A stretch of DNA of 10,715 nucleotides, taken from a virus. Taxonomy: Duplodnaviria; Heunggongvirae; Uroviricota; Caudoviricetes. Within the stretch, counting starts at the first letter, position 1. Every line of letters starts with the position of its first letter. The stretch is taken from the IMG/VR virus record IMGVR_UViG_2609460059_000002; one strand, written 5' to 3'. The position numbers were made by a program, and so were the translations under genes. The notes under the pieces are model-generated. The model was not told the origin of the DNA. It searched no databases and saw only the letters and a program-made list of their open reading frames with translations. Shown here piece after piece: positions 1-10,715 of the stretch.

Positions 1-291
1 ATGCTGCTGTTCTACCTGGAAGCGGCGTCCAGCGGGCTGGCTGGCGGTGCGCTGGGATGTATTGCCGGGTGGGGGCTGGCGAAAGCGATTGGCGTCATGC
101 TCTTCGACGCGCCGCTTAATTTTGCCTGGATTGTGGTGCCGTGCGTACTGGTGATTGCGGTACTGATTGCGTTGATCGGCACCTGGTTCCCGGCCCGGCG
201 GATTGCCCGGCTGGTCTGTATGGAGTTTCTTTTTTCTTTATACTCTCTTCACGGTGTTTTTTATACTGGTGTTAAATGGTATGGGATATGA
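1..291 (+). CDS. 3'-terminal fragment of an FtsX-family ABC-transporter permease gene (start lies upstream of the window); recognisable sequence ends near 216, and the open frame then runs on to 291 through unrelated AT-rich DNA
   Basis: Translation shows hydrophobic TM segments followed by the FtsX-type C-terminal motif IGTWFPARRIARL. The usual final residues after this motif are absent and replaced by low-complexity F/L/S/Y-rich sequence. Composition drops sharply from GC-rich to AT-rich at about 217-222. Confidence 0.45.
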   Translation: MLLFYLEAASSGLAGGALGCIAGWGLAKAIGVMLFDAPLNFAWIVVPCVLVIAVLIALIGTWFPARRIARLVCMEFLFSLYSLHGVFYTGVKWYGI

Positions 292-481
292 TTTTCTTAC
301 ATCATTTGCAACAGTGGCTGCATGTATTAATAATATGGGATTAGGTTTTGGGGCTACTGCATCGTCATTCGGAGTGCTTAATGACATTGCAAAATATTTA
401 ATGTGCATAGCTATGATTCTTGGTCGCCTTGAAATTTATCCTGTTATTATATTGTTTTCAGGTTTTTTTTGGCGCTCCTAA
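221..481 (+). pseudogene. 5'-truncated remnant of a TrkG/TrkH-like potassium uptake protein gene (C-terminal ~70-85 codons only)
   Basis: Frame-2 translation ends with ...NNMGLGFGATASSFGVLNDIAKYLMCIAMILGRLEIYPVIILFSGFFWRS, which from memory matches the conserved TrkH/TrkG C-terminus (GRLE...FWR end). There is no plausible N-terminal region or start for a ~480 aa transporter; the track start at 203 is a TTG inside the permease fragment. Confidence 0.5.
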
Positions 482-567
482 TATATGGCTGATTTATAAT
501 TGTGAGTTTAATATTATATTGACTCACTCATTGATCCAATACCTAACTTTACCAGCAACACCTCCGC

Positions 568-591
568 CCCCAGTAGCACTGGCTGCTGGGG
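568..591 (+). promoter_or_regulatory. GC-rich hairpin (CCCCAG-N12-CTGGGG) followed by a T-rich tract, about 30 nt upstream of the ParB-like gene start; possible terminator/attenuator or 5'-UTR structure
   Basis: Perfect 6-bp inverted repeat seen directly in the sequence (568-573 / 586-591), then tgcgTTTTATT. Confidence 0.3.
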
Positions 592-618
592 TGCGTTTTA
601 TTCATAAAGCAAGGCTGT

Positions 619-1410
619 ATGAGCGAGAAATTGAAGATCGTCTATCGCCCTTTACAAGAACTGTCTCCGTATGCACACAACGCCAGGACACACAGCCCTG
701 AGCAGGTGGCACAACTGGTAGAAAGCATTAAGCAATTCGGCTGGACTAATCCGGTGCTGATTGATGAAAAGGGCGAAATTATTGCTGGTCACGGTCGCGT
801 TATGGCGGCTGAAGTGCTCAAAATGGATTCCATTCCGGTCATCGTTCTGTCTGGTTTGATGGATGATCAGAAAAAGGCGTACCGCCTGGCAGATAATCGC
901 CTGCCGATGAATGCTGGCTGGGATGAAGATCTGTTACGGATGGAGCTGTCGGACCTAATCAATGCTGATTTTGATGTCTCCCTGACAGGCTTCAGCCCGA
1001 CAGAAATTGATGAACTGTTGACGGATGTTTTGCCCGGTACAGAAAATGAGGAGGAGCCGTATACGACGAAAATTGATACGCCTGTTTATGAGCCGTCGGG
1101 CGGTAAACCGGATATCAGTGAACTGTACGACGATACGAAAACTCAGGAGCTGATCAGCCGGATACGTTCGGCGTCTCTTGAGCCTGATATTGAGAAATTC
1201 CTCCTGTGTGCGGCAGAACGTCACACGGTGTTTAATTTCAGCAGAATTGCGGACTATTACGCTCACGCCCCCGCTGAAATTCAGTGTTTTTTCGAGGAGT
1301 CGGCGCTGGTGATCATTGATTATCAGCAGGCTATTGAAAATGGATTTGTCCGGATGACGCAGCGCATGGTGGAGATCATGCATGGTGGTGAGGAGGAGGA
1401 ATATGCGTGA
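619..1410 (+). CDS. ParB/Srx-fold (ParB N-terminal nuclease-like domain) protein, 263 aa, with a C-terminal region of unknown function and an acidic tail
   Basis: ATG at 619 with AAGG 4 nt upstream. The N-terminal ~110 aa carry the ParB-N signature layout (...LIDEKGEIIAGHGRVMAAEVL..., conserved G-x-x-R-x-x-A arginine motif). Stop TGA at 1408-1410 overlaps the next gene's start. Confidence 0.8.
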   Translation: MSEKLKIVYRPLQELSPYAHNARTHSPEQVAQLVESIKQFGWTNPVLIDEKGEIIAGHGRVMAAEVLKMDSIPVIVLSGLMDDQKKAYRLADNRLPMNAGWDEDLLRMELSDLINADFDVSLTGFSPTEIDELLTDVLPGTENEEEPYTTKIDTPVYEPSGGKPDISELYDDTKTQELISRIRSASLEPDIEKFLLCAAERHTVFNFSRIADYYAHAPAEIQCFFEESALVIIDYQQAIENGFVRMTQRMVEIMHGGEEEEYA

Positions 1411-2335
1411 TGATTTTTGCGCCTTTATTCTGACTCACGGGCGACCGGACAAAGTTCTGACTTACCGGACGTTGCGTCGTGCTGGCTATACCGGGAAAAT
1501 TTTTATCGTTGTTGATGATGAAGATAAGACACGGCATCAGTACATGGCTGAATTTGGTGAACAGGTGCTGGTGTTTTCCAAAGCCGATATCGCCAGTCGT
1601 TTTGACGAAGCCGATAATTTCGGTGACCGCCGCTCAATTTTTTACGCCCGTAATGCCTGTTTCGACCTGGCAAAACTGGTCGGGTGTAAATACTTCATTC
1701 AGCTCGATGATGATTATCACGAGTTCCAGTTTCGGGTGGATCGCAACTATGACCAGGCCTATTTTCCGATAAGGAAACTGGATGCGATCCTTTCTGAAAT
1801 GCTGGCGTACTACGAATCAATACCTGCTCTTTCCATCGCTATGTCGCAGGGCGGGGATTTTCTTGGTGACAATGGCGGCCATGCTTCGTGGGTAAAACGC
1901 AAGGCAATGAACAGCTTTATCTGTTCGGTTGACCGACCGTTCTCATTCATGGGGCGCATTAACGAGGATGTGAATACGTACACGAATCTCGGTCGCCGTG
2001 GTGAATTGTTTATGACGATCGGTGCTGTCCAGTTAGGGCAGAAACAGACGCAGAAAAACAGCGGCGGAATGACCGAGCTGTATCTGGATTCCGGAACCTA
2101 CGTTAAAAGTTTTTACTCCGTCATGTATGCGCCGTCGTGCGTAAAAATCTCACTGATGGGAGCCAGCCATAAACGCATTCACCATCAGGTCACCTGGAAC
2201 AACGCTGCAGTAAAAATCCTTCACGAAAAATACAGGAAGAAGACACCCTGCATATCAATAGGGGTGACAAATGATTCCGTATTCGAAAGTCGAGTCTCTG
2301 GCAGCGTGCCGGATGACTGCACAACAAATCGCTGA
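1403..2335 (+). CDS. Hypothetical protein with GT-A-fold glycosyltransferase-like motifs (310 aa); candidate nucleotide-sugar transferase, possibly DNA-modifying
   Basis: ATG at 1403 is preceded by GAGGAGGAGG and overlaps the upstream stop in ATGCGTGA, indicating translational coupling. The N-terminus FILTHGRPDKVLTYRTL...KIFIVVDDED resembles the first beta-alpha-beta of GT2-type enzymes. A DXD-like motif FIQLDDDYHEF lies at nt 1706-1714. The track start at 1382 lacks an RBS. Confidence 0.55.
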   Translation: MRDDFCAFILTHGRPDKVLTYRTLRRAGYTGKIFIVVDDEDKTRHQYMAEFGEQVLVFSKADIASRFDEADNFGDRRSIFYARNACFDLAKLVGCKYFIQLDDDYHEFQFRVDRNYDQAYFPIRKLDAILSEMLAYYESIPALSIAMSQGGDFLGDNGGHASWVKRKAMNSFICSVDRPFSFMGRINEDVNTYTNLGRRGELFMTIGAVQLGQKQTQKNSGGMTELYLDSGTYVKSFYSVMYAPSCVKISLMGASHKRIHHQVTWNNAAVKILHEKYRKKTPCISIGVTNDSVFESRVSGSVPDDCTTNR

Positions 2336-2522
2336 CGTTCTGGATGTTGATCTGAACCGACTGAAAGAAAATCGGGAAGCAATGACAGATTTTTATGCGG
2401 CCATCCGTAAGGGCAGAGCGAAAGGTGAAGCCGAGTTACGGGCGGCATTGTTTAAGCTTGCCAGAAAAGGGGATGCCTTTGCTCTGCGCGAACTACTCAG
2501 GGTGGATAAAAATCAGGACTAA
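2271..2522 (+). CDS. Small (83 aa) putative helix-turn-helix DNA-binding protein immediately upstream of terS; possible packaging accessory or regulatory protein
   Basis: ATG at 2271 with GGGGTGA upstream. Contains an HTH-like segment MTAQQIADVLDVDLNRLKE followed by a basic helix. Stops at TAA 2520-2522, 3 nt before the terS ATG. Overlaps the 3' end of the upstream gene by 65 nt, so the start is uncertain (alternative ATG at 2313). Confidence 0.5.
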   Translation: MIPYSKVESLAACRMTAQQIADVLDVDLNRLKENREAMTDFYAAIRKGRAKGEAELRAALFKLARKGDAFALRELLRVDKNQD

Positions 2523-2525
2523 CTG

Positions 2526-3620
2526 ATGAGCAGACCGGACTGGGGGGCGTTGCAGCAGGAGTATATTGCTGAATACACCCGCTCCGGTATATCTCCGGTG
2601 GCATGGTGTGAAGCAAGGGGACTGAATTACGCAACAGCCCGTCGTTACATCAAAAAACCTCCGAAAAATGCGCAGACAGAAATGCGCAAAACTGCGCAAA
2701 AAAGTGCGCAGAAAAAATCTGCGCAGACTGCACAAAAGCGGAACGAAAAATCTCAGGAAAAAAAGCCAGTATTCGATGCGGGCCTGAATGAGGGCGACGC
2801 GGAGGAATTTTCGTTCTGTCCCGATGAATTCGGCATTTCTGACCAGCAGGCTAAGTTTGCGATGCTTGTTGCTCAGGGGAAAAAGCCGACAGAGGCGTAC
2901 CGACTAGCCGGTTATGAGGGGCAAGGTGCGACAGCTAACAGCAACGCCAGTCGTATGCTTAGAAATGCCAGGGTTTTTCGCGCTATCAGCTACTTCCGCA
3001 ATCAGTACCAGAAACGCTATACCGCAGACCTGGATTTACTGGTGAGTCAGTTGATGGCCATTGTCCTGGCCGACCCCAATCAGCTTGCACAATTTCGCCG
3101 TGTTAACTGCCGTTATTGCTGGGGCGAGAATCATCTCTACCAGTGGCGCGATATAGCAGAATTCGACAAGGCAGCGGCGCAGGCTTCCAGAGATGGCAAA
3201 CCCGAACCGGAATATGGAGGCCTCGGCTTTGTTGATAACGCCATACCCAATCCGGACTGCCCGAAGTGCTGCGGTGAGGGAACGGGACAGCTTTATATGG
3301 CTGATACCACTCTGCTTGATGGGGATGCGCGGCAATTATATGCAGGGGCAAAACTCGGAAAATTCGGCGTTGAGATCCTGCTGGAGGATAAGGCTGCCGC
3401 CCGGCGTGAATTGTTGCGTTTGCTTTCTGCTGGTGGGGCTTTATGTGCAGATAAGCGGCTACAGGAACTGGAAATTGAACGGCGCAGAATGGAAAACCAG
3501 AAGCTGCGCAAAGAGATCGAAACGGTGGAAGATAATGAACATCCCCAGCCTGTGGCGATCAATATTAATGTGGTTGATGCCAGAGTAAGGAGTGATGAAG
3601 ATGATCTCTCCGACGCTTAA
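2526..3620 (+). CDS. terS: Terminase small subunit (unusually long, 364 aa): N-terminal HTH, A/Q/K-rich linker, terminase-small-subunit-type DNA-binding domain, Cys4-type zinc-ribbon-like motif, C-terminal coiled coil
   Basis: The N-terminus MSRPDWGALQQEYIAEYTRSGISPVAWCEARGLNYATARRYI is HTH-like. The internal segment FCPDEFGISDQQAKFAMLVAQGKKPTEAYRLAGYEG...SRMLRNARV matches the conserved phage small-terminase domain as I recall it. Sits directly upstream of, and overlaps, the large terminase gene. Confidence 0.8.
   Translation: MSRPDWGALQQEYIAEYTRSGISPVAWCEARGLNYATARRYIKKPPKNAQTEMRKTAQKSAQKKSAQTAQKRNEKSQEKKPVFDAGLNEGDAEEFSFCPDEFGISDQQAKFAMLVAQGKKPTEAYRLAGYEGQGATANSNASRMLRNARVFRAISYFRNQYQKRYTADLDLLVSQLMAIVLADPNQLAQFRRVNCRYCWGENHLYQWRDIAEFDKAAAQASRDGKPEPEYGGLGFVDNAIPNPDCPKCCGEGTGQLYMADTTLLDGDARQLYAGAKLGKFGVEILLEDKAAARRELLRLLSAGGALCADKRLQELEIERRRMENQKLRKEIETVEDNEHPQPVAININVVDARVRSDEDDLSDA
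2669..2725 (+). repeat. Cluster of five copies of the palindromic hexamer TGCGCA spaced 10-15 bp apart inside terS (encodes the A-Q-K-rich linker); candidate pac-type recognition repeats
   Basis: TGCGCA at 2669, 2683, 2693, 2705 and 2720, each embedded in A-rich context (aaTGCGCAgac, aaTGCGCAaaa, cTGCGCAaaaa, gTGCGCAgaaa, cTGCGCAgac). Confidence 0.5.
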
Positions 3621-4902
3621 TGTGCCTCAGGCGCGATTTCTTTCAATGCCCCATAAATTTAAAGCCTATATTGCTGGTTTTGGCTCGGGCAAAACATGGG
3701 TTGGGTGTGGCGGCATATGCAAGGGGATTTGGGAGCATCCAGGTATAAATCAGGGATATTTTGCGCCAACGTATCCCCAAATTCGCGATATTTTTTACCC
3801 TACAGTGGAAGAAGTTGCTGCTGACTGGGGATTGAACGTAAAAATTAATGAGGGAAATAAAGAGGTTCACTTTTATTACGGACGCCAGTATCGGGGAACC
3901 ACTATCTGCAGATCGATGGAGAAGCCACAAACGATCGTCGGTTTCAAAATTGGTAATGCGCTGGTGGATGAACTGGACATTTTGCCGAAGGAAAAAGCCA
4001 GAACGGCGTGGCGCAAGATAATTGCGCGTATGCGTTATAAGATTGATGGACTTCGCAACGGTATTGACGTTACAACCACGCCGGAAGGATTCAAATTTGT
4101 CTACGAGCAGTTTGTTAAAGCCGTGCGTGAAAAAACAGAGCTGGCCTCACTGTATGGTCTGGTGCAGGCATCTACTTTCGATAATGAAAAGAACCTGCCA
4201 GCAGATTACATTCCTTCGCTTCTTGAATCATACCCTCCAGAGCTGATTAAAGCCTATCTTCGAGGACAGTTTACTAACCTGACAAGTGGTACTGTTTACC
4301 ATCAGTTTGACCGGAAACTGAATAATTGCGAAGAAGTGGAGCAGCCAGGGGAGCCGATTTATATTGGGATGGATTTTAACGTTGGAAAGATGGCGGGGAT
4401 CGTCCATGTGCTGCGTTTGGGGCTTCCATGTGCGGTAACTGAAATCATCAATGCCTACGATACGCCGGATATGATCCGCATCATTAAAGAACGCTTCTGG
4501 CTGTATGACGGGAATGATTACCGGAAAGTGAGGGAGATTTATATTTATCCAGATGCTTCCGGAGATTCCAGAAAATCAAGTAACGCAAGTACGACGGATA
4601 TAGCCCAGCTTAAGCAGGCTGGTTTTAACGTTGTGGTGAACAGCTCGAACCCGCCAGTAAAAGATCGCGTTAACTCAATGAATGCAATGTTCTGCAATGC
4701 CAATGGTGAGCGTCGCTATAAAGTTAATGTGAAGCGTTGTCCGGTATATGCCGAATCTCTGGAGCAACAGGTCTGGGATGATAAGGGGGAGCCTGATAAA
4801 AAATCTGGCAATGATCACCCGAATGATGCCGGAGGTTATTTCATCGTTAAGCAATTCCCTATTGTCAAACCGACCGGAAGAGTCACATCACTTCGGATTT
4901 AA
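3601..4902 (+). CDS. terL: Terminase large subunit (ATPase/nuclease)
   Basis: Walker A-like motif AGFGSGKTW near the N-terminus; size about 433 aa. TAAGGAG at 3586-3592 gives the best spacing for ATG 3601 (in-frame alternatives GTG 3592 and ATG 3595). Overlaps the terS 3' end by 20 nt. Stop TAA 4900-4902. Confidence 0.88.
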   Translation: MISPTLNVPQARFLSMPHKFKAYIAGFGSGKTWVGCGGICKGIWEHPGINQGYFAPTYPQIRDIFYPTVEEVAADWGLNVKINEGNKEVHFYYGRQYRGTTICRSMEKPQTIVGFKIGNALVDELDILPKEKARTAWRKIIARMRYKIDGLRNGIDVTTTPEGFKFVYEQFVKAVREKTELASLYGLVQASTFDNEKNLPADYIPSLLESYPPELIKAYLRGQFTNLTSGTVYHQFDRKLNNCEEVEQPGEPIYIGMDFNVGKMAGIVHVLRLGLPCAVTEIINAYDTPDMIRIIKERFWLYDGNDYRKVREIYIYPDASGDSRKSSNASTTDIAQLKQAGFNVVVNSSNPPVKDRVNSMNAMFCNANGERRYKVNVKRCPVYAESLEQQVWDDKGEPDKKSGNDHPNDAGGYFIVKQFPIVKPTGRVTSLRI

Positions 4903-4904
4903 TT

Positions 4905-6311
4905 ATGGCTGATATATCAACACCCAACCTCGACTATAACGATATGCTGGAGGCGTGGGATATTAACGACGCATTGATGGGCGGTACGCTTGAAATGCGC
5001 AGGCAGGGGGAAAATTATCTCCCCAAATGGCCTAATGAAGATGAAGACGCTTATAAAAAACGCCTGTCTGTGGCTACGCTACTTCCTGTGTATGAAGAAA
5101 GCATCAAACAAAATATTGGGCGCATATTTGCAGAGCCGACAGTATTGAGTGAGGAAACGCCGGAAAAAATCAGGGAATATGCAGAAAATATCGACATGGA
5201 GGGGAGCCGACTGGATGTGTGGGCGCAGCAATTTTTCAGTCTCGCATTTCAGTATGGTGTGGCACATGCGCTGGTGGACTATCCACGAACGGATATGAAA
5301 GAGATTCGGACAAAAGCCGATGAAAACGCGGCCGGTGGTCGCCCGTACGTTACGATGCTGAATCCACGCCAGGTTATTGGATGGAAATCGAAAGTTGAAA
5401 AAGGGAAAGTTGTTCTCACTGATTTGCGTATAAAAGAGGTCATCATTATTGATGGTGATGATTTCGGGCAGAAGAAGGTGGAGCAGATCCGCCATATTAT
5501 GCCCCGTCGAGTTGAAATTTATCGACGCAGCGAAGGTACTAATGGCGAATCTGTCTGGACGCTTCATGAGTCATGGAATACCAGCCGTGATGATATTCCT
5601 CTGGTAACACTGTATACGAAGAAAACAGGGTTTATGCGTGGTACACCGCCATTGCTTAATCTTGGCTTGCTGAATATCAAGCACTGGCAAAGCCAGAGCG
5701 AGCAGGACAATATTCTTCATGTTGCCCGCGTTCCATTGCTGGTGGCCTACGGGCTGGACAGGAATGAAGAACTGACGGTTGGTGCATCCACCGCTACGAT
5801 TTTTGAGGACAGAACAAAAAATGGCCTCGAATATGTTGAACATAGTGGCGCAGCGATAGAATCTGGCGAAACATCACTTGAGAAGCTGGAAAATCAGATG
5901 CGTCATGCCGGCGCTAAACTTCTGCGGGCTGAAAATACATCCACCAAATCTGTTGATCAGACTAATGAAGAGCGGATGCAGGAACACTCGCCGCTTTATA
6001 CAATGGCGAACTCCCTCGAAGATGCCCTCGATAATATTCTCCAGATAATGGCGGAATGGAGCGGAGAGAGTTGCGGTGGCAATGTGGATGTGCGCACTGA
6101 ACTGGATGTATCTGCCCAGGTGTTTGACTCATCCTCCGCGCTGGCTGTTCAGTCATTGCGTCAGGGCGGTGATATACGTCAGATTGATGCGGTTCGGGTG
6201 TTGCAGGCGTTGAAATTTATCGATCAGGATTCCCGTCCAGAGGAAGTGATCGATGAATTAAAAAATCAGAGTGTAATGCTGATGGAAATCAATGATGCAA
6301 ACCGTGAATGA
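4905..6311 (+). CDS. Portal protein (468 aa)
   Basis: Canonical position between the large terminase and the Mu F-like head morphogenesis gene, with typical portal size. ATG is 2 nt after the terL stop (TAATTATG). No motif-level confirmation is possible by eye. Confidence 0.7.
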   Translation: MADISTPNLDYNDMLEAWDINDALMGGTLEMRRQGENYLPKWPNEDEDAYKKRLSVATLLPVYEESIKQNIGRIFAEPTVLSEETPEKIREYAENIDMEGSRLDVWAQQFFSLAFQYGVAHALVDYPRTDMKEIRTKADENAAGGRPYVTMLNPRQVIGWKSKVEKGKVVLTDLRIKEVIIIDGDDFGQKKVEQIRHIMPRRVEIYRRSEGTNGESVWTLHESWNTSRDDIPLVTLYTKKTGFMRGTPPLLNLGLLNIKHWQSQSEQDNILHVARVPLLVAYGLDRNEELTVGASTATIFEDRTKNGLEYVEHSGAAIESGETSLEKLENQMRHAGAKLLRAENTSTKSVDQTNEERMQEHSPLYTMANSLEDALDNILQIMAEWSGESCGGNVDVRTELDVSAQVFDSSSALAVQSLRQGGDIRQIDAVRVLQALKFIDQDSRPEEVIDELKNQSVMLMEINDANRE

Positions 6312-7407
6312 ACGGCTGCGTGATGAATCAATTGCTCATGCAGTCTGGATATCCCGCTATAGCACTGGTGTGGCTGCCAGAATGGTGAAAATACTGAATG
6401 ACAGCGATGCGGAGCTTACAGCTCGCCTGCTGGTAGCACTGGACAGCCTCGATCCTGGTAGTTTTACCGTTACGCGCCTGGAGTCACTTCTGGCGAGTGT
6501 CAGAGAGGTTAACCGCGCTGCTATTAACAGCATGTTTACCAGTCTCTCCGGAGAGCTGAACGAGCTGGCAATTTATGAGGCTGGTTATCAGTTAAGTCTG
6601 TTTGATTCTCTGCTACCTGATTTTGTTGCTGATGTTCACCCTCTGGTTGGTATCTCTTCTGATGCACTTTACGCCGCTGCAATGGCGCGACCATTCCAGG
6701 GACGACTGCTCAGTGAGTGGGCCTCAGATCTTGAGGCGGATCGGCTCAGACGCATAACAAATACGGTGCGTCAGGGTTTTTTGCTGGGGGATACCAATGA
6801 GCAGATCGCAAGAAAAATTCGGGGACATGTCAGTAAGGGATTTCAGGATGGTGCATTGCAGATGAGCCGGGCTAATGCGGCCAGCATTGCAAAAACAGCG
6901 GTTGGACATCTTGCTGCTACTGCTCGTGAGAGTTTTGCACGCGCGAATAATGATTTGATTAAGGGTAAGCAATGGTTATCAACGCTTGATAATCGTACTA
7001 CGCCACAATGTCGAATCAGGGATCGCCTCAAATATACGCTGGATAATAAACCTGTAGGTCACAGCGTGCCTTATTTGCAGGGGCCGGGAAAAATTCATTT
7101 CTGCTGCCGCTCAACGGAAACGTTCATTCTGAAATCAGCGAAGGAACTGGGTATTGATGTTCGTGATATTTCCCCGGTTGAGCGGGCCAGCATGGATGGC
7201 GTGGTGGCCGGAGATACAACCTACAGGGAATGGTTTTTGCGTCAGCCTTACACCAGACAAAAACAGATTGTGGGGGAAACCCGGGCAAAGCTGATTCGGG
7301 ATGGTGGTATGTCGCCAGATGAATTTTACACCGATAAAGGCGAATGGCTGACGCTGAAGCAACTCCGTGAGCGTGATGCACAGGTATTCAGAAAAGCAGG
7401 GATTTAA
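6292..7407 (+). CDS. Phage head morphogenesis protein, Mu F / SPP1 gp7 family (minor head protein)
   Basis: Contains the family signature W-x-S/T-x-x-D-x-R-T-x-P-x-C as WLSTLDNRTTPQCRIRDRL. Overlaps the portal 3' end by 20 nt. Stop TAA 7405-7407. Confidence 0.78.
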   Translation: MMQTVNERLRDESIAHAVWISRYSTGVAARMVKILNDSDAELTARLLVALDSLDPGSFTVTRLESLLASVREVNRAAINSMFTSLSGELNELAIYEAGYQLSLFDSLLPDFVADVHPLVGISSDALYAAAMARPFQGRLLSEWASDLEADRLRRITNTVRQGFLLGDTNEQIARKIRGHVSKGFQDGALQMSRANAASIAKTAVGHLAATARESFARANNDLIKGKQWLSTLDNRTTPQCRIRDRLKYTLDNKPVGHSVPYLQGPGKIHFCCRSTETFILKSAKELGIDVRDISPVERASMDGVVAGDTTYREWFLRQPYTRQKQIVGETRAKLIRDGGMSPDEFYTDKGEWLTLKQLRERDAQVFRKAGI

Positions 7408-7426
7408 ATAAATCATTTATTACAAC

Positions 7427-7453
7427 AGGCTACCTTCGGGTGGCCTTTTTTAT
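7427..7453 (+). terminator. Intrinsic-terminator-like hairpin with UUCG tetraloop and U-tract, between the Mu F-like gene and the scaffold gene
   Basis: aGGCTACC-TTCG-GGTGGCCt is an 8-bp stem including one G-U pair, loop TTCG, followed by TTTTTTATT; it starts 20 nt after the stop at 7407. Confidence 0.55.
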
Positions 7454-7511
7454 TGCTGCGATCCGGATGGTGAGCAGCGTAACTGTCAGAAGACTTAAAC
7501 CAGGTACTAAT

Positions 7512-8276
7512 ATGAAACTGAAAACGGTCGAGATTAACGGAAAACAATACGCAGAAATTGATACTGCTGGCCTGCCAGTCTATGTGCACGACGATGGTAA
7601 AGAAATCGGCTTCGATGCACCGCTGGCGACAAAAAAAATTACAGAGCTTAATGGCGAGGCAAAAAATCATCGCCTGGCTAAAGAAGCTGCAGAGGAAAAA
7701 CTGGCTAAGTTTGCCGCTATCGAAGACCCGAAGAAGGCGATTGAGGCACTGGAAATGCTGTCAAAAATCGACCAGAAAAAGCTGATCGATGCGGGACAGG
7801 TTGACCAGGTTAAGGCAGAAATTACGAAAAATTTTCAGCAGCAATTAGATGAAGAAAAGCAACACTCTCAGATGCTGGAGAAGCAGCTTTACGATTCTAT
7901 GATTGGCGGTAGTTTTGCGGGTTCAAAATATATTGCCGATAAAATTGCGATCCCGGCAGATTTATTACAAGCCCGCTTCGGACAGGCATTCAAAGTGGAA
8001 GAAGGGAAGATCGTTGCTTATGACGCTTCCGGCAACAAAATTTATTCCCGCGCGAAGCCAGGAGAACTGGCGCAGTTTGATGAGGCGCTGGAGTTCCTCG
8101 TCGAAAATTACCCTCAGAAAGACTACATCCTGAAAGCCAGTGGCAACAATGGCTGCGGCTCCCGTCCGACACAGCATGATATTGGTCAGAAAACGATGAA
8201 ACGCTCTGCTTTTGATGCACTGGATGTTGCCGGTAAGCAAAACGCACTGAAAGACGGTATCACAATCGTTGATTAA
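7512..8276 (+). CDS. Putative scaffolding protein (254 aa), charged and predicted coiled-coil rich
   Basis: Lies between the Mu F-like and major capsid genes. E/K/Q/A-rich helical sequence (EAKNHRLAKEAAEEKLAKFAAIEDPKKAIEALEMLSKIDQKKLIDAGQVDQVKAEITKNFQQQLDEEKQ). ATG 7512 is preferred over the track's GTG 7440, which lies inside the terminator hairpin. Confidence 0.6.
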   Translation: MKLKTVEINGKQYAEIDTAGLPVYVHDDGKEIGFDAPLATKKITELNGEAKNHRLAKEAAEEKLAKFAAIEDPKKAIEALEMLSKIDQKKLIDAGQVDQVKAEITKNFQQQLDEEKQHSQMLEKQLYDSMIGGSFAGSKYIADKIAIPADLLQARFGQAFKVEEGKIVAYDASGNKIYSRAKPGELAQFDEALEFLVENYPQKDYILKASGNNGCGSRPTQHDIGQKTMKRSAFDALDVAGKQNALKDGITIVD

Positions 8277-8374
8277 TACATTTGCCAGCTTCCGGATGGG
8301 AACTGGTGTCAGGGCTGGATAGCTCACTACTCAATCAATTCACAATTACGCAAATTTTTAAGGAATATTTAATT

Positions 8375-9514
8375 ATGGCTGGAAATACCCTGACCGGGTT
8401 GATCCCGACTATTTACACCGCCCTGGATGTTGTATCCCGTGAGCAGGTAGGTTTTATCCCTGCGGTAGCAAAAAACGCAAAAGCTGACGCCGCAGCAAAA
8501 GATCAGACGGTAACCGCGCCAGTTGCGCCTGAGGCGAGAACCGAAGATATCGTACCGGGGCCGTCAGCTCCGAATACCGGTGATCAAAATATTGGCACTG
8601 TTGATGTGAAAATTACTAAATCCAAAATGGCACCGGTTAAATGGAATGGTGAAGAACAACTGGCTCTTGGCCCTTCAGGGACTTACAACACCATTCTGGC
8701 TGATCAGTTCAAGCATGCTTTTCGCGCCCTTGCAAACGAGGTTGAGGCTGATCTTGGTGCGTTGTATTTCGGTGCTTCCCGCGCCGTGGGAACCGCAGGG
8801 ACAACGCCGTTTGGTGTTAAAGATGATCTTTCTGATGCTGCTCTGGCTCGTCAGGTTCTGGAGGATAACGGCGCACCGACAACCGATCTGCAGATGGTGC
8901 TTGGCTCCACTGCCATTGCTAATTTGCGCGGAAAACAGTCTGTACTGTTTAAAGTGAATGAATCCGGCACTGAACAGCTACTGCGTGAGGGCGTGTTGGG
9001 GCGTCTGGAGGGATTCAATATTCACAGTTCGGCAGGTGTAAAACGAGCGCCAAAGGTTGCTGCAACTGGTTATCTCGTGAATGGCGAGAAAAAAGAAGGC
9101 GATGTTCTTATTTCCATTGATACTGGTTCGGGGAGTATTTCTGCAGGTCAGATTGTTACGTTCGTTGGCGATCCGAATCAGTATGTTGTGGCAGCAGCGA
9201 CCAGCAATCTGATTACTCTTGCAGCGCCCGGACTGCGTCAGGATCTGGCCGATGATACTGCAATCACAGTTGTTGGCTCCTTTACTGCAAATATGGCGTT
9301 TGATCGCAACGCGTTTCTGCTGGCATCCCGTACTCCGGCAATGCCGGAAGGTGGCGATAATGCTGATGATGTAATGAATGTTACGGACCCGATTTCAGGG
9401 ATTACGTTCCAGATTGCACTGTATCGTCAGTATCGCCAGGTGCGCTATGAAGTTGGACTGGCATGGGGTGTTTCATCAGTGAAGCCGGCACATGGTTGTC
9501 TGATTCTTGGTTAA
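8375..9514 (+). CDS. Major capsid protein (379 aa)
   Basis: Position after the scaffold gene and typical size. ATG 8375 has AAGGA 11 nt upstream; the track's 8282 start is a TTG with no RBS. Followed immediately by a terminator-like hairpin, as is common after capsid genes. Confidence 0.7.
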   Translation: MAGNTLTGLIPTIYTALDVVSREQVGFIPAVAKNAKADAAAKDQTVTAPVAPEARTEDIVPGPSAPNTGDQNIGTVDVKITKSKMAPVKWNGEEQLALGPSGTYNTILADQFKHAFRALANEVEADLGALYFGASRAVGTAGTTPFGVKDDLSDAALARQVLEDNGAPTTDLQMVLGSTAIANLRGKQSVLFKVNESGTEQLLREGVLGRLEGFNIHSSAGVKRAPKVAATGYLVNGEKKEGDVLISIDTGSGSISAGQIVTFVGDPNQYVVAAATSNLITLAAPGLRQDLADDTAITVVGSFTANMAFDRNAFLLASRTPAMPEGGDNADDVMNVTDPISGITFQIALYRQYRQVRYEVGLAWGVSSVKPAHGCLILG

Positions 9515-9523
9515 ACATTCAAA

Positions 9524-9547
9524 CGGGGCTTCGGCCCCATTTTTAAT
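9524..9547 (+). terminator. Intrinsic-terminator-like hairpin (GGGGC-TTCG-GCCCC) with U-tract, directly after the major capsid gene
   Basis: 5-bp G/C stem at 9525-9529 / 9534-9538, TTCG tetraloop, then ATTTTTAAT; begins 10 nt after the capsid stop. Confidence 0.55.
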
Positions 9548-9556
9548 GGAGGGCAT

Positions 9557-9733
9557 ATGGCCGGATTAACTAAAGAGCAAAGAGCACAGCGTGAAGCCGC
9601 ACAAAAAACGCAAATTGAGTTAGTGGTTATGGTGACCGATTATCAGATGTTTCCCGGCGCACCAACTATCGCTAATGTTCATCCTGATGAAGTTGACAAC
9701 TGGAAAGCTATGGGCTGGAAAACTCAGGAGTAA
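9557..9733 (+). CDS. Small hypothetical protein (58 aa), not in the supplied ORF track; possible head accessory protein
   Basis: ATG 9557 is preceded by GGAGGG; translation MAGLTKEQRAQREAAQKTQIELVVMVTDYQMFPGAPTIANVHPDEVDNWKAMGWKTQE; stop TAA 9731-9733. It fills the gap between the capsid terminator and the next gene, whose ATG is 3 nt downstream. Confidence 0.5.
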   Translation: MAGLTKEQRAQREAAQKTQIELVVMVTDYQMFPGAPTIANVHPDEVDNWKAMGWKTQE

Positions 9734-9736
9734 CAC

Positions 9737-10132
9737 ATGATCACTTACGTGACCTGTGATGACGTTGATAATGCGTTTGGGAACGCCTGGACGAGTGAGA
9801 ACGCTAAAAATAAAGCTGTTTTAATGGCTAATGCCTGGCTTAATGGCTTCAACCTGAAAATTAACCCATCCCGTATTCCGGAAGAGGTAAAACTTGCGGG
9901 AGCATATGCAGCCAGAATTGCCTCATTCGGTAAGTTGTTTCAGCAGAAAAATGATTCTGGCGTTGTTATCAGTAAAGCCGTGTCGGCTGACGGGGTCAGT
10001 GTATCGAAATCATTTGCTGAGTTGCCAGCAAACAGCACTGCATTGCTTGAACCCGATTTACAGCTTGCGATAGCACTGCTGAAACCGTACGGACTTAGTC
10101 GCTCACAAGTCAGGGTTGTGAGGGGGGGATAA
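9737..10132 (+). CDS. Putative head-tail connector / head completion protein (131 aa)
   Basis: Position downstream of the capsid gene in an SPP1/HK97-like gene order; its stop overlaps the next start (TAATG). Assignment is by synteny only. Confidence 0.5.
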   Translation: MITYVTCDDVDNAFGNAWTSENAKNKAVLMANAWLNGFNLKINPSRIPEEVKLAGAYAARIASFGKLFQQKNDSGVVISKAVSADGVSVSKSFAELPANSTALLEPDLQLAIALLKPYGLSRSQVRVVRGG

Positions 10133-10515
10133 TGGGGCTTCGTGAAGAGATTCAGTCAGAGGTTGCCGCTGCTTTTGATGAGGATTTAGCGGACGCCGTG
10201 AGTGATTTTTCTGGTTCTTACGTTACGCACCGGCACTGGGATCCTGTGACGGAAACTGGCGGCGAATCCACCGCAATCTATACCGGGCGAGGCGTGTTGA
10301 CACGTTATAAGCTGGGCAGAATTGATGGGATTAATATTTTGCATGGTGACCTTAAATTAACCGCTCTGGTATGCGAGGTTACGGATAAACCCGCTGTCGA
10401 CCATATTATTGAGATTTATGATCCTGTATCAAGGCAGTTACAACGATACGAGGTAATTACAGCGAGTGTAGATCCTTCCGCATCAGTTTACTCTATCCAG
10501 TTAAGGAGAGCGTAA
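10132..10515 (+). CDS. Putative head-tail joining (adaptor/stopper-like) structural protein (127 aa)
   Basis: Translationally coupled to the upstream gene (ATG within TAATG at 10130-10134) and to the downstream gene. Assignment is by synteny only. Confidence 0.45.
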   Translation: MGLREEIQSEVAAAFDEDLADAVSDFSGSYVTHRHWDPVTETGGESTAIYTGRGVLTRYKLGRIDGINILHGDLKLTALVCEVTDKPAVDHIIEIYDPVSRQLQRYEVITASVDPSASVYSIQLRRA

Positions 10516-10715
10516 ATGGCAAAGGCATGGGATATAGAACCGTCAATATTTGCCGGGATGATTGAGGAAGATGTGGGGCTGAAGATTCGCTACATCGCTA
10601 TGCAGATTCTTACTGCTATTGATATTGCTGCTCCGGTTGATACCGGACGTTTCAGAAATAACAACCTGGTGTCGTTACAGCATCCCGATTTTGGTATATC
10701 TGATAACGTGGATCC
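10516..10715 (+). CDS. 5' part of an HK97 gp10-family head-tail joining / tail completion protein (CDS continues beyond the window)
   Basis: ATG 10516 follows AAGGAGAG and lies directly after the upstream TAA. Translation MAKAWDIEPSIFAGMIEEDVGLKIRYIAMQILTAIDIAAPVDTGRFRNN contains the P-x-D-T-G-x-(L/F)-R motif typical of the HK97 gp10 family as I recall it. Confidence 0.55.
   Translation, partial: MAKAWDIEPSIFAGMIEEDVGLKIRYIAMQILTAIDIAAPVDTGRFRNNNLVSLQHPDFGISDNVD

What the first reader, a model, noticed from the sequence alone, without database searches (positions are those of the whole stretch)
2526..3620. Atypically long, multi-domain small terminase with a Cys4 zinc-ribbon-like motif
At 364 aa this TerS is about twice the usual size. 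It combines an N-terminal HTH, a low-complexity basic linker, a second terminase-type DNA-binding domain, a CxxC...CxxCC cluster (CRYC at nt ~3108-3119 and CPKCC at ~3258-3272) and a C-terminal coiled coil. A metal-binding element in TerS could mediate oligomerisation or TerL docking. Together with the separate 83-aa HTH protein upstream, the DNA-recognition part of packaging appears unusually elaborate.
Basis: seen in the sequence. Interest (0 to 1): 0.4.

Follow-up and report, generated by a model that had tools for sequence, protein, structure and literature searches.

The report
Zinc-knuckle small terminase with embedded pac-like repeats
This is the genuine DNA-packaging "small terminase" of a common E. 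coli Rac-type prophage; it carries a strictly conserved four-cysteine (probably zinc-binding) module typical of a large, structurally unsolved terminase subfamily, and its "low-complexity linker" turns out to be the translation of a DNA repeat array that is probably the site the protein itself recognises to start packaging.

Summary
The ORF (2526-3620, 364 aa, 40.9 kDa) and the CRYC/CPKCC motifs are exactly where stated. It is a real TerS of an intact Rac-type prophage, matched in 906 of 5,426 complete E. coli genomes.

C195, C198, C245 and C248 are invariant in every intact homologue down to ~25% identity. The fifth cysteine, C249, is not conserved. They form two knuckles (CxxCxG and CPxCxGxG) in an ~85-95-residue insertion in the SF6-G1P-type core. 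About 1,200 sequence clusters share this module, including phages F116 and Bcep22. The module models confidently but has no solved structural counterpart. I could not measure Cys-Cys distances or test metal binding.

The unusual length comes from an extra N-terminal helix-turn-helix plus linker, present in about a quarter of the subfamily.

Unexpectedly, the linker DNA holds five TGCGCA repeats within 57 bp. They are kept beyond what the peptide requires and occur in all three codon phases. Across 44 helix-turn-helix variants the motif co-varies perfectly with one recognition-helix residue: Arg with TGCGCA, Lys with TGCGAA. This is a candidate portable pac-recognition cassette, with tight linkage as the main caveat.

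TerL docking by the cysteine module is untested and not favoured.

The parts
2526..3620 (+). terS: small terminase, 364 aa, 40.9 kDa
   Evidence: ORF. Pfam Terminase_2 above its cut-off. phrog_51 matches full length. PGAP annotates it 'terminase small subunit'.
2526..2654 (+). N-terminal three-helix HTH (residues 1-43); recognition helix ...NYATARRYIK with Arg39
   Evidence: AF2 helices 6-20, 24-30 and 35-38, pLDDT ~90-96. Homologous to the N-termini of other TerS families in Stx, Klebsiella, Yersinia and Pasteurella phages. Residue 39 co-varies with the downstream repeat motif.
2655..2771 (+). Flexible basic linker (residues 44-82, pI 10.6)
   Evidence: Low pLDDT, ~50-80. Composition. Peptide sequence is poorly constrained among close variants.
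2669..2734 (.). Hexamer repeat array: TGCGCA at 2669, 2683, 2693, 2705 and 2720, plus a degenerate TGCACA at 2729. Candidate binding sites of the N-terminal HTH and candidate pac site.
   Evidence: 5 of the window's 8 copies lie within 57 bp. Copies occur in two codon phases. Synonymous-codon resampling P = 5e-5. The same position holds arrays in 236 related loci. Reverse search from the DNA motif recovers the HTH.
2772..2834 (+). Acidic connector (residues 83-103)
   Evidence: 7 D+E, 0 K+R, pI 4.1. Partly low pLDDT.
2835..3005 (+). G1P/SF6-type TerS DNA-binding HTH domain (residues ~104-160)
3006..3086 (+). End of the first long core helix (model helix 148-181) leading to the conserved ADPNEL motif
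   Evidence: DSSP of the model. Aligns to SF6 G1P up to chain residue 103.
3087..3311 (+). Cys4 module (residues 188-262), inserted in the oligomerisation core
   Evidence: Pfam match covers 200 residues against 111 profile positions. ~95 profile positions replace ~13 SF6 residues. It is the most conserved part of the family. Sub-model pLDDT 94.7. No PDB fold match.
3108..3125 (+). Knuckle 1: C195-R-Y-C198-W-G200
   Evidence: C195, C198 and G200 are invariant in 120 sequences at 25-55% identity.
3258..3281 (+). Knuckle 2: C245-P-K-C248-C-G250-E-G252 (CPxCxGxG); C249 is not conserved
   Evidence: C245, C248, G250 and G252 are invariant. C249 is Cys in 16 of 141. All apparent exceptions are truncated or chimeric sequences.
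3312..3533 (+). Beta-hairpin (272-286) and long C-terminal helix (289-336), which includes the second core helix
   Evidence: DSSP. Profile positions 189-224 align to SF6 G1P 117-152. The heptad pattern is weak.
3534..3617 (+). Acidic, disordered C-terminal tail (residues 337-364). A TerL-contact role is inferred only.
   Evidence: pLDDT below 60. pI 4.1. A flexible C-terminal moiety is general in TerS (PMC9611059).
2271..2522 (+). Upstream 83-aa ORF (PGAP aa from nt 2313): a TerS-like HTH domain without an oligomerisation part
   Evidence: phrog_309 'terminase small subunit', E 8e-23. 35% identical to the N-terminus of the 129-aa TerS of Pasteurella phage Pmp13. That homology extends upstream of PGAP's start.
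3592..4902 (+). terL: large terminase, overlapping the end of terS
   Evidence: Pfam Terminase_6N and Terminase_6C. PGAP's start corresponds to nt 3601.

Best explanation
The ORF is the functional small terminase of an intact Rac-type lambdoid prophage, assembled from separable modules.

(1) Core. This is an SF6/SPP1 G1P-type TerS: an HTH DNA-binding domain (residues ~104-160), a helical oligomerisation core, a long C-terminal helix and an acidic tail.

(2) Cys4 module. An ~85-95-residue, loop-rich module is inserted between the first core helix and the beta-hairpin that precedes the second core helix. Two invariant knuckles, CxxCxG (C195, C198) and CPxCxGxG (C245, C248), most likely chelate one structural Zn2+. 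The metal would rigidify a domain that decorates the TerS ring. This module defines a very large proteobacterial-phage TerS subfamily of headful (pac) packagers.

(3) N-terminal cassette, the part that makes this protein long. It is a three-helix HTH on a flexible basic tether. The DNA that encodes the tether carries five to six TGCGCA hexamers. I infer that these hexamers are the HTH's own binding sites and act as the specificity element of the pac site. The flexibly tethered N-terminal HTHs of the presumed TerS ring would capture the array. The G1P-type HTHs would then add sequence-independent DNA contacts, and TerL would cut nearby.

Shown: homology, domain order, the insertion point, Cys invariance, DNA-level selection on the repeats, and motif/helix-3 covariation.

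Inferred: zinc binding, ring geometry, HTH-array binding, and pac function.
For: TerS identity and context:
- Family matches and annotation.

Cys4 module:
- C195, C198, C245, C248, G200, G250 and G252 are the only invariant columns in 120 sequences at 25-55% identity.
- 133 of 133 intact relatives keep all four Cys; the 8 exceptions are truncated or chimeric.
- Knuckle spacing varies from 46 to 66 residues while the knuckles stay fixed.
- The module is the best-conserved segment of the family.
- The module models at pLDDT 94.7 with one strand immediately before knuckle 1 and one immediately after knuckle 2.
- Nine of the ten sub-threshold sequence hits fall on the second knuckle (CPxCxGxG); they include known Zn proteins such as anti-TRAP, phage Q, UvrA and DnaJ.
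- The subfamily is large (1,217 clusters at E<=1e-10) and includes F116, phiC725A, Bcep22, BcepB1A and PEp14.
- phiC725A is a headful packager. Its read coverage peaks from position ~23,500 (PMC5217972), which lies inside its terS Cys-module coding region at 23,443-23,790.

Repeat array:
- 5 of 8 TGCGCA copies in the window lie within 57 bp.
- Synonymous-codon resampling gives P<=5e-5 in five independent genes.
- Copies occur in all three codon phases, encoding different peptides.
- 24 Arg-type HTH peptides all have TGCGCA arrays and 20 Lys-type all have TGCGAA arrays.
- The pairing persists at 37-60% HTH identity and locus GC of 0.38-0.60, with unalignable spacers.
- The cassette occurs on TerS cores with and without the Cys module.
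- Starting from the DNA motif alone, at least 67 of 120 arrays have the Arg-type HTH just upstream and none has the Lys type.

Precedents: P22 pac lies inside terS and P1 pac has seven hexanucleotide repeats (PMC11260489).
Against: - No metal analysis was possible.
- Model coordinates are not exposed, so Cys-Cys distances could not be measured.
- The module is net acidic in this protein (pI 4.9), so a DNA-binding role for it is doubtful and its actual function is open.
- The Arg/Lys codon lies only ~13-25 nt from the array. In three close pairs the "switch" is a recombination breakpoint just 5' of helix 3, not a point mutation. Linkage plus concerted evolution of repeats could therefore produce much of the covariation.
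- Motifs for the resampling test were chosen after seeing them.
- No binding, cleavage or virion-end data exist for this phage.
Confidence: 0.65

Rival explanations
1. One reading: the Cys4 element is the TerL-docking or ring-oligomerisation surface of TerS.
For: The module is inserted in the oligomerisation core and is the most conserved part of the family, as expected for an interaction surface. All six sampled partner TerLs fall in the broad phrog_2 clade.
Against: Partner TerLs are so divergent that BLASTP finds no similarity between ours and F116's, and four of the five partner TerLs scanned (from other phages) have no Pfam match, while the module stays 35-55% identical. In BcepB1A and Bcep22, terS is not adjacent to terL. 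In characterised TerS proteins the TerL contact is usually assigned to the flexible C-terminal region (my own knowledge; PMC9611059 describes a flexible C-terminal moiety). No multimer modelling was possible, so oligomerisation remains open.
Confidence: 0.25
2. The four cysteines bind iron (rubredoxin-like Fe(Cys)4) or form a redox-sensitive disulfide switch, rather than a purely structural zinc site.
For: CxxC...CPxC pairs also occur in rubredoxins (my own knowledge). Nothing in the sequence data distinguishes Zn from Fe. Position 194 is an additional Cys in 42 of 141 homologues.
Against: Both knuckles have the CxxCxG(xG) spacing typical of DnaJ-type zinc centres rather than rubredoxin's CxxCG (my own knowledge; weak hits). 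No redox partner or function is suggested by the packaging-gene context.
Confidence: 0.12
3. The TGCGCA array has no DNA-level function. It is a slippage-generated low-complexity coding tract, and the Arg/Lys-to-motif association is only linkage between neighbouring sites.
For: Copy number varies from 3 to 10. The tract is flanked by poly-A runs prone to slippage. Helix 3 and the array are inherited as one block, with breakpoints just upstream.
Against: In-frame slippage cannot place the same hexamer in three codon phases within one gene. Hexamers persist while the spacers become unalignable across lineages with 37-60% HTH identity and very different GC. Codon choice is strongly biased toward the motif. 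Arrays found from DNA alone are overwhelmingly next to this HTH.
Confidence: 0.15
4. The array is bound by the HTH but serves autoregulation of terS/terL expression, or acts as a recombination hotspot for module exchange, rather than as pac.
For: The sites lie inside the coding region near the 5' end of the late packaging operon. The cassette boundaries coincide with recombination breakpoints.
Against: pac sites of P22, P1 and phiC725A lie in or next to terminase genes. The binding domain is part of TerS itself, whose known role is pac recognition.
Confidence: 0.15

Closest known systems
SF6/SPP1 G1P small terminase (Pfam Terminase_2, PDB 3ZQP/3ZQQ/2CMP)
   Different: About 95 profile positions carrying the Cys4 module replace ~13 residues of G1P. 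There is an additional N-terminal HTH plus linker and a longer C-terminal helix. The protein is 40.9 kDa against 16 kDa for G1P.
TerS of Pseudomonas phages F116/phiC725A and Burkholderia phages Bcep22/BcepB1A (same Cys-module subfamily)
   Same: Same Terminase_2 core with the inserted CxxCxG...CPxCxGxG module, 39-47% identical over the module. phiC725A is experimentally a headful packager with its coverage maximum starting inside terS.
   Different: They are 260-272 aa and lack the N-terminal HTH cassette. No TGCGCA-type array is evident in their genes.
Bacillus phages Sam46/Sam112 TerS (FtsK-gamma + Terminase_2; PMC8190038)
   Same: A second, sequence-specific DNA-binding domain is fused N-terminal to a Terminase_2 core, and it was proposed to recognise short repeated sites.
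   Different: The extra domain here is a different three-helix HTH with no FtsK_gamma match. Its candidate sites lie inside the gene itself.
pac sites of P1 (seven hexanucleotide repeats) and P22 (22 bp inside terS)
   Same: A packaging-recognition element built from repeated hexamers (P1), and a location inside the terminase small-subunit gene (P22) (PMC11260489).
   Different: The motif differs (TGCGCA/TGCGAA). The array lies under a protein linker and is readable in any frame. It travels with its cognate HTH between TerS cores. pac function is not shown here.
DnaJ-type CxxCxGxG zinc centres; herpesvirus terminase zinc fingers (pUL28, pUL56)
   Same: Two CxxCxG(xG) knuckles about 50 residues apart, as in DnaJ zinc centre I (my own knowledge; sub-threshold hit). 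Among terminase recognition subunits, zinc fingers are so far described only for herpesviruses (PMC9611059).
   Different: There is no significant sequence or fold similarity and no homology to pUL28/pUL56.

Membership tests
Terminase_2 / G1P-type small terminase | Sequence match to the family model above the curated threshold | tested here: met
   PF03592 scores 35.1 bits against a cut-off of 26.1. Family profile against SF6 G1P gives E 9e-17.
Terminase_2 / G1P-type small terminase | G1P-like helix-turn-helix DNA-binding domain | tested here: met
Terminase_2 / G1P-type small terminase | Gene placed with terL, portal and head genes in a packaging module | tested here: met
   terS overlaps terL, followed by DUF4055 (probable portal) and a Mu F-like head protein.
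Terminase_2 / G1P-type small terminase | Ring oligomer that binds pac DNA and activates TerL | not testable with these tools
   No multimer prediction or biochemistry is available.
Cys4 zinc-knuckle / zinc-ribbon-like module | Four ligands in two CxxC knuckles, invariant among homologues | tested here: met
   C195, C198, C245 and C248 are invariant in 120 of 120 diverse and 133 of 133 intact sequences.
Cys4 zinc-knuckle / zinc-ribbon-like module | The four sulfurs lie within chelating distance in 3D | not testable with these tools
   The model is confident (pLDDT 94.7) but coordinates are not exposed. Only topology is visible: strand-knuckle ... knuckle-strand.
Cys4 zinc-knuckle / zinc-ribbon-like module | Fold similarity to a known zinc-ribbon or DnaJ Cys-rich domain | tested here: not met
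Cys4 zinc-knuckle / zinc-ribbon-like module | Stoichiometric bound metal | not testable with these tools
   Requires ICP-MS or a PAR assay.
pac site embedded in terS (P22/P1-like) | Located in or next to the small-terminase gene | tested here: met
   The array at 2669-2734 lies inside terS.
pac site embedded in terS (P22/P1-like) | DNA sequence conserved beyond coding needs | tested here: met
   Resampling P<=5e-5 in five genes. Three codon phases are used. The motif persists across deep lineages.
pac site embedded in terS (P22/P1-like) | Specific TerS binding and the first packaging cut nearby | not testable with these tools
   Indirect evidence only: helix-3/motif covariation and the phiC725A coverage maximum inside terS.
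Two-DBD TerS of the Sam46 type (FtsK_gamma + Terminase_2) | The extra N-terminal DNA-binding domain is an FtsK_gamma winged helix | tested here: not met
   No FtsK_gamma hit in Pfam. The only hit is a sub-threshold IS66 TnpA-type HTH match: 20.3 bits against a cut-off of 28.

The most novel reading that the evidence does not exclude
The N-terminal HTH plus the hexamer array encoded under its own linker is a portable, self-contained pac-recognition cassette. It has a simple read-out (Arg39 with TGCGCA, Lys39 with TGCGAA) and recombines onto unrelated TerS cores, re-targeting packaging specificity in one step. Separately, the Cys4 module defines a major zinc-dependent structural class of phage TerS that has never been described or solved.
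Probability: 0.4. Interest if true: 0.75.

Novelty: new variant of a known kind. Interest (0 to 1): 0.58.

Why it matters
How small terminases pick out viral DNA is still described as "elusive and controversial" (PMC9611059). Solved TerS HTHs bind DNA with little sequence preference (PMC4737164).

This gene family offers a natural matched pair of recognition helix and repeat motif, sitting inside the gene. It can be tested by simple gel shifts, motif swaps and synonymous recoding. It also bears on the specificity of transduction by a prophage matched in about 17% of complete E. coli genomes.

Independently, a strictly conserved, probably zinc-binding domain exists in over a thousand TerS sequence clusters, including those of the classic transducing phage F116. 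It is absent from every solved TerS structure and from two recent packaging reviews (2022, 2026), so current structural models of TerS do not cover a large part of phage diversity.

Tried and rejected
- Fold searches of the isolated module to tie it to a known zinc fold: nothing found.
- Sequence-profile search of the module against PDB and Pfam: only sub-threshold knuckle hits.
- TerL co-evolution test: inconclusive. All partner TerLs hit the broad phrog_2 family but are mutually unrecognisable.
- "A single R39K substitution switches the array" (L188 versus L152): rejected. The DNA alignment shows a recombination breakpoint just 5' of helix 3, so the Fitch count of 7 switches counts recombination events, not mutations.
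- [quoted passage not shown]: not relied on. Every such variant comes from Logan auto-assemblies only, and homopolymer errors plus my seeing only intact ORFs could explain the pattern.
- The idea that the helix-3 codons themselves seed the motif (TCT GCG AAA = TGCGAA): true in only some lineages, so it is not a general explanation.
- Literature searches for zinc in phage TerS, or for TGCGCA with terminase, found nothing relevant.
Full report
**1. Observation**

The ORF 2526-3620 (+) is present, starts with ATG and encodes 364 aa, or 40.9 kDa. Cysteines lie at residues 28, 98, 195, 198, 245, 248, 249 and 307. CRYC maps to nt 3108-3119 and CPKCC to nt 3258-3272, exactly as stated. Two or more CxxC motifs arise in only 0.85% of 20,000 shuffles of the protein.

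**2. Identity and context**

Pfam Terminase_2 matches above its curated cut-off (35.1 against 26.1 bits). The match covers residues 122-321 but only profile positions 19-129, which signals an insertion. PHROG 51 ("terminase small subunit") matches full length.

The gene overlaps a Terminase_6-type terL and is followed by DUF4055 (probable portal) and Mu-F-like head genes. Window positions 213-10715 are 99.98% identical to a prophage in E. coli CH4811 that is flanked by trkG, ynaK and ydaY, which makes it an intact Rac-type lambdoid prophage.

The 1.5-kb region around terS is matched in 906 of 5,426 complete E. coli genomes and is annotated "terminase small subunit" by PGAP. The protein itself is therefore not new to databases.

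**3. The cysteines**

An exhaustive search of representatives clustered at 50% identity, using residues 95-330, found 1,651 clusters at E<=1e-3 and 1,217 at E<=1e-10.

- In a MAFFT alignment of 141 sequences, C195 and C198 are present in 141 of 141. C245 and C248 are present in 134 and 135 of 141.
- All 8 exceptions are truncated, frameshifted or chimeric sequences, so the intact members are 133 of 133.
- In 120 full-length sequences at 25-55% identity to the query, the only invariant columns are C195, C198, G200, C245, C248, G250 and G252.
- C249, C28, C98 and C307 are not conserved.
- The region around the knuckles (ADPNEL..RR.NCR[YH]C.G..H.YQW...E...P..GG.GF....PNP.CP.C.GEG....DT..L) is the most conserved part of the whole family.
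- The distance between the knuckles varies from 46 to 66 residues.

**4. Structure**

AlphaFold2 with the 120-sequence alignment gives mean pLDDT 86.5, with ~95-98 across residues 100-300. The predicted elements are:

- N-terminal helices 6-20, 24-30 and 35-38;
- a low-confidence linker;
- an HTH domain;
- a long helix 148-181;
- strand 188-193, the loop-rich Cys region with helix 210-222, and strand 253-258;
- a beta-hairpin at 272-286;
- a helix 289-336 and a disordered tail.

Coordinates are not exposed. Zinc binding remains an inference from motif type, invariance and cytoplasmic location.

**5. How typical is it?**

Most relatives are 240-260 aa. The Cys module occurs in the annotated TerS of cultured phages including Pseudomonas F116, phiC725A, Skulduggery and Itty13, Burkholderia Bcep22, BcepB1A, BcepIL02 and DC1, Erwinia PEp14, and Klebsiella, Yersinia, Acinetobacter, Serratia and Xanthomonas phages.

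phiC725A is experimentally a headful packager. Its read-coverage maximum starts at position ~23,500 (PMC5217972). That lies inside the Cys-module coding part of its terS, at 23,443-23,790.

A 2022 TerS review mentions zinc only for herpesvirus pUL28 and pUL56 and gives TerS protomers as ~15-21 kDa. A 2026 packaging review does not mention zinc or cysteine at all. Targeted literature searches found nothing. The module thus appears undescribed, although it is widespread.

**6. Function of the module**

Partner TerLs are highly divergent. BLASTP detects nothing between ours and F116's. Four of the five partner TerLs scanned have no Pfam match, although all hit the broad phrog_2 family. In Bcep22 and BcepB1A, terS is not adjacent to terL.

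The module in this protein is net acidic (pI 4.9), apart from the conserved RR.NCR patch. I therefore favour a structural zinc site that stabilises a ring-decorating domain. The domain's partner (DNA, a neighbouring protomer or TerL) is not determined, and TerL docking is the least supported option.

**7. Why this protein is long**

An N-terminal extension of 60 or more residues occurs in 37 of 141 relatives. Here it is a three-helix HTH (residues 1-43) plus a basic linker (residues 44-82).

The HTH is shared at 40-60% identity with the N-termini of TerS proteins that have other cores, in Stx phages, Klebsiella RothD and Pasteurella Pmp11. A precedent for a Terminase_2 TerS with an added N-terminal DNA-binding domain is Bacillus phage Sam46/Sam112, which carries an FtsK-gamma domain (PMC8190038).

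**8. The linker is a DNA repeat array**

Under the linker, TGCGCA occurs at 2669, 2683, 2693, 2705 and 2720, with TGCACA at 2729. That is five of the window's eight copies within 57 bp. One copy is in a different codon phase (aTG CGC Aaa).

At the same position in relatives:

- Klebsiella ST16-OXA48phi5.1 has six TGCGCA in all three phases, encoding TAQ, PAQ, LRT and KCA.
- Yersinia vB_YenM_29.18 and Klebsiella RothD have TGCGAA(T), often as TGCGAATTCGCA palindromes.
- Pasteurella Pmp11 has nine TGCGAA in two phases.
- Stx phage AU5Stx1 has four 12-bp units containing GATCAT, followed by two TGCGCA.

Resampling synonymous codons while holding the peptide fixed gives P<=5e-5 for the observed motif counts in five genes, and 0.016 for AU5Stx1. 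The motifs were chosen after inspection.

Three scans of viral contigs gave 236 loci, 143 distinct DNA variants and 46 HTH peptides.

- All 24 peptides with ...A-R-RYIK have TGCGCA arrays of 3-8 copies, with 0-1 TGCGAA.
- All 20 peptides with ...A-K-RYIK have TGCGAA arrays, typically 4-9 copies, with 0-1 TGCGCA.
- Fisher's exact test gives 5.7e-13, not corrected for relatedness.
- All four combinations of HTH type and core type (with or without the Cys module) exist.
- Copies are mostly 7-15 bp apart and use all three codon phases.

In the reverse direction, 120 viral-contig stretches have three closely spaced TGCGCA. At least 67 encode this HTH just upstream. All 67 are Arg type and none is Lys type, and several of the remainder carry diverged Arg-type HTHs.

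**9. Caveats on the array**

HTH pairs that differ only at residue 39 are not point mutants. The DNA is identical up to codon ~35 and then diverges through helix 3, the array and the core. Helix 3 and the array are therefore one tightly linked block, and linkage can explain part of the covariation.

Against pure linkage, the pairing and the hexamers persist across lineages with 37-60% HTH identity, locus GC of 0.38-0.60 and unalignable spacers.

Close E. coli variants in which the linker is read in other frames through compensating poly-A indels come only from Logan assemblies and may be artefacts. I do not rely on them.

**10. Interpretation**

pac sites inside or beside terminase genes are well established. 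P22 pac lies within terS, P1 pac has seven hexanucleotide repeats (PMC11260489), and phiC725A packaging starts near its terminase genes. The SF6 G1P-type HTH binds DNA largely without sequence specificity (PMC4737164).

I therefore propose that the tethered N-terminal HTHs provide specificity by binding the TGCGCA array inside terS, and that the G1P-type HTHs and the ring then load the DNA for TerL. This is inference, and autoregulation or a recombination role are alternatives.

**11. The upstream ORF**

The 83-aa ORF (2271-2522) matches phrog_309 "terminase small subunit". It is 35% identical to the N-terminal HTH of the 129-aa TerS of Pasteurella phage Pmp13, which pairs with a Terminase_3 TerL. 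It looks like the DNA-binding domain of another TerS family without an oligomerisation part. Its role is unknown, and it is absent from the Klebsiella and Yersinia relatives.

**12. Verdict**

The protein is an already-annotated TerS, but two features are apparently undescribed: a strictly conserved Cys4 module defining a large unsolved TerS class, and an HTH plus in-gene hexamer-array cassette that is a strong, directly testable candidate for pac recognition.

Noticed in passing
window 2640-2790; loci L014-L018: Close E. coli variants (P0010, P0021, P0024, P0027, P0037 and others) translate the linker in the +1 or +2 frame. They do so through compensating 1-2-nt indels in poly-A runs, while the TGCGCA copies are essentially all kept. 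All such variants come only from Logan auto-assemblies, so homopolymer errors plus ascertainment may explain them.
   Followed up: partly
window 1-212 versus 213-481: The first 212 nt encode the C-terminus of an FtsX-type permease (Pfam PF02687) and are not part of the CH4811 prophage. From nt 213 onward the sequence is a 3' fragment of trkG (TrkH family). This could be a deletion or rearrangement junction, or a chimera, at the left edge of the window.
   Followed up: partly
window 619-2335: A ParB/Srx-like protein (263 aa) and a TET-associated glycosyltransferase (TAGT; PGAP calls it 'GREB1-related') sit immediately upstream of the packaging genes, with no TET/JBP gene in the window. This may be a DNA-modification module. 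Pasteurella phage Pmp13 also has a ParB-like gene in a similar position upstream of its terS (L002).
   Followed up: no
window 2271-2335: Homology of the small upstream ORF to Pmp13 TerS begins at residue 2 of the 83-aa reading. That is upstream of the ATG at nt 2313 that PGAP and the Logan gene calls use (69 aa). The longer ORF, which overlaps the TAGT gene by 65 nt, may be the real one.
   Followed up: partly
L012 2501-3307 (Stx1 phage AU5Stx1 terS): After a related N-terminal HTH (...TARTRIK) there are four tandem 12-bp units, each containing GATCAT (which includes a Dam GATC site), followed by two TGCGCA copies. This is reminiscent of the Dam-sensitive hexamer repeats of P1 pac (my own knowledge).
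   Followed up: partly
L348, L367 (IMG/VR contigs): TGCGCA arrays also follow HTH-like segments in other proteins: a 246-aa protein with '...SEATARGYISKL...', and a 167-aa TerS-like protein with '...RATAKKFGVSDNTVKK...'. The hexamer/HTH pairing may therefore extend beyond this cassette.
   Followed up: no
L001 7420-7677 versus window 619-1410: PGAP annotates ynaK in CH4811 as a pseudogene fragment missing its C-terminus. The window, which is 99.98% identical over this stretch, has an intact 263-aa ParB-like ORF there. This may be an annotation artefact.
   Followed up: no
proteins P0007, P0031, P0032, P0124, P0126: Database entries fuse this TerS to tail-fibre, TAGT, Mu-F-like or TerL sequences. 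These are probably assembly or gene-calling chimeras. They account for the apparent 'Cys-less' homologues.
   Followed up: partly
homologue alignment, column of residue 194: The residue just before the first ligand is itself Cys in 42 of 141 homologues (CCRxC), and His203 is conserved in 101 of 141. These are possible alternative or additional ligands.
   Followed up: no
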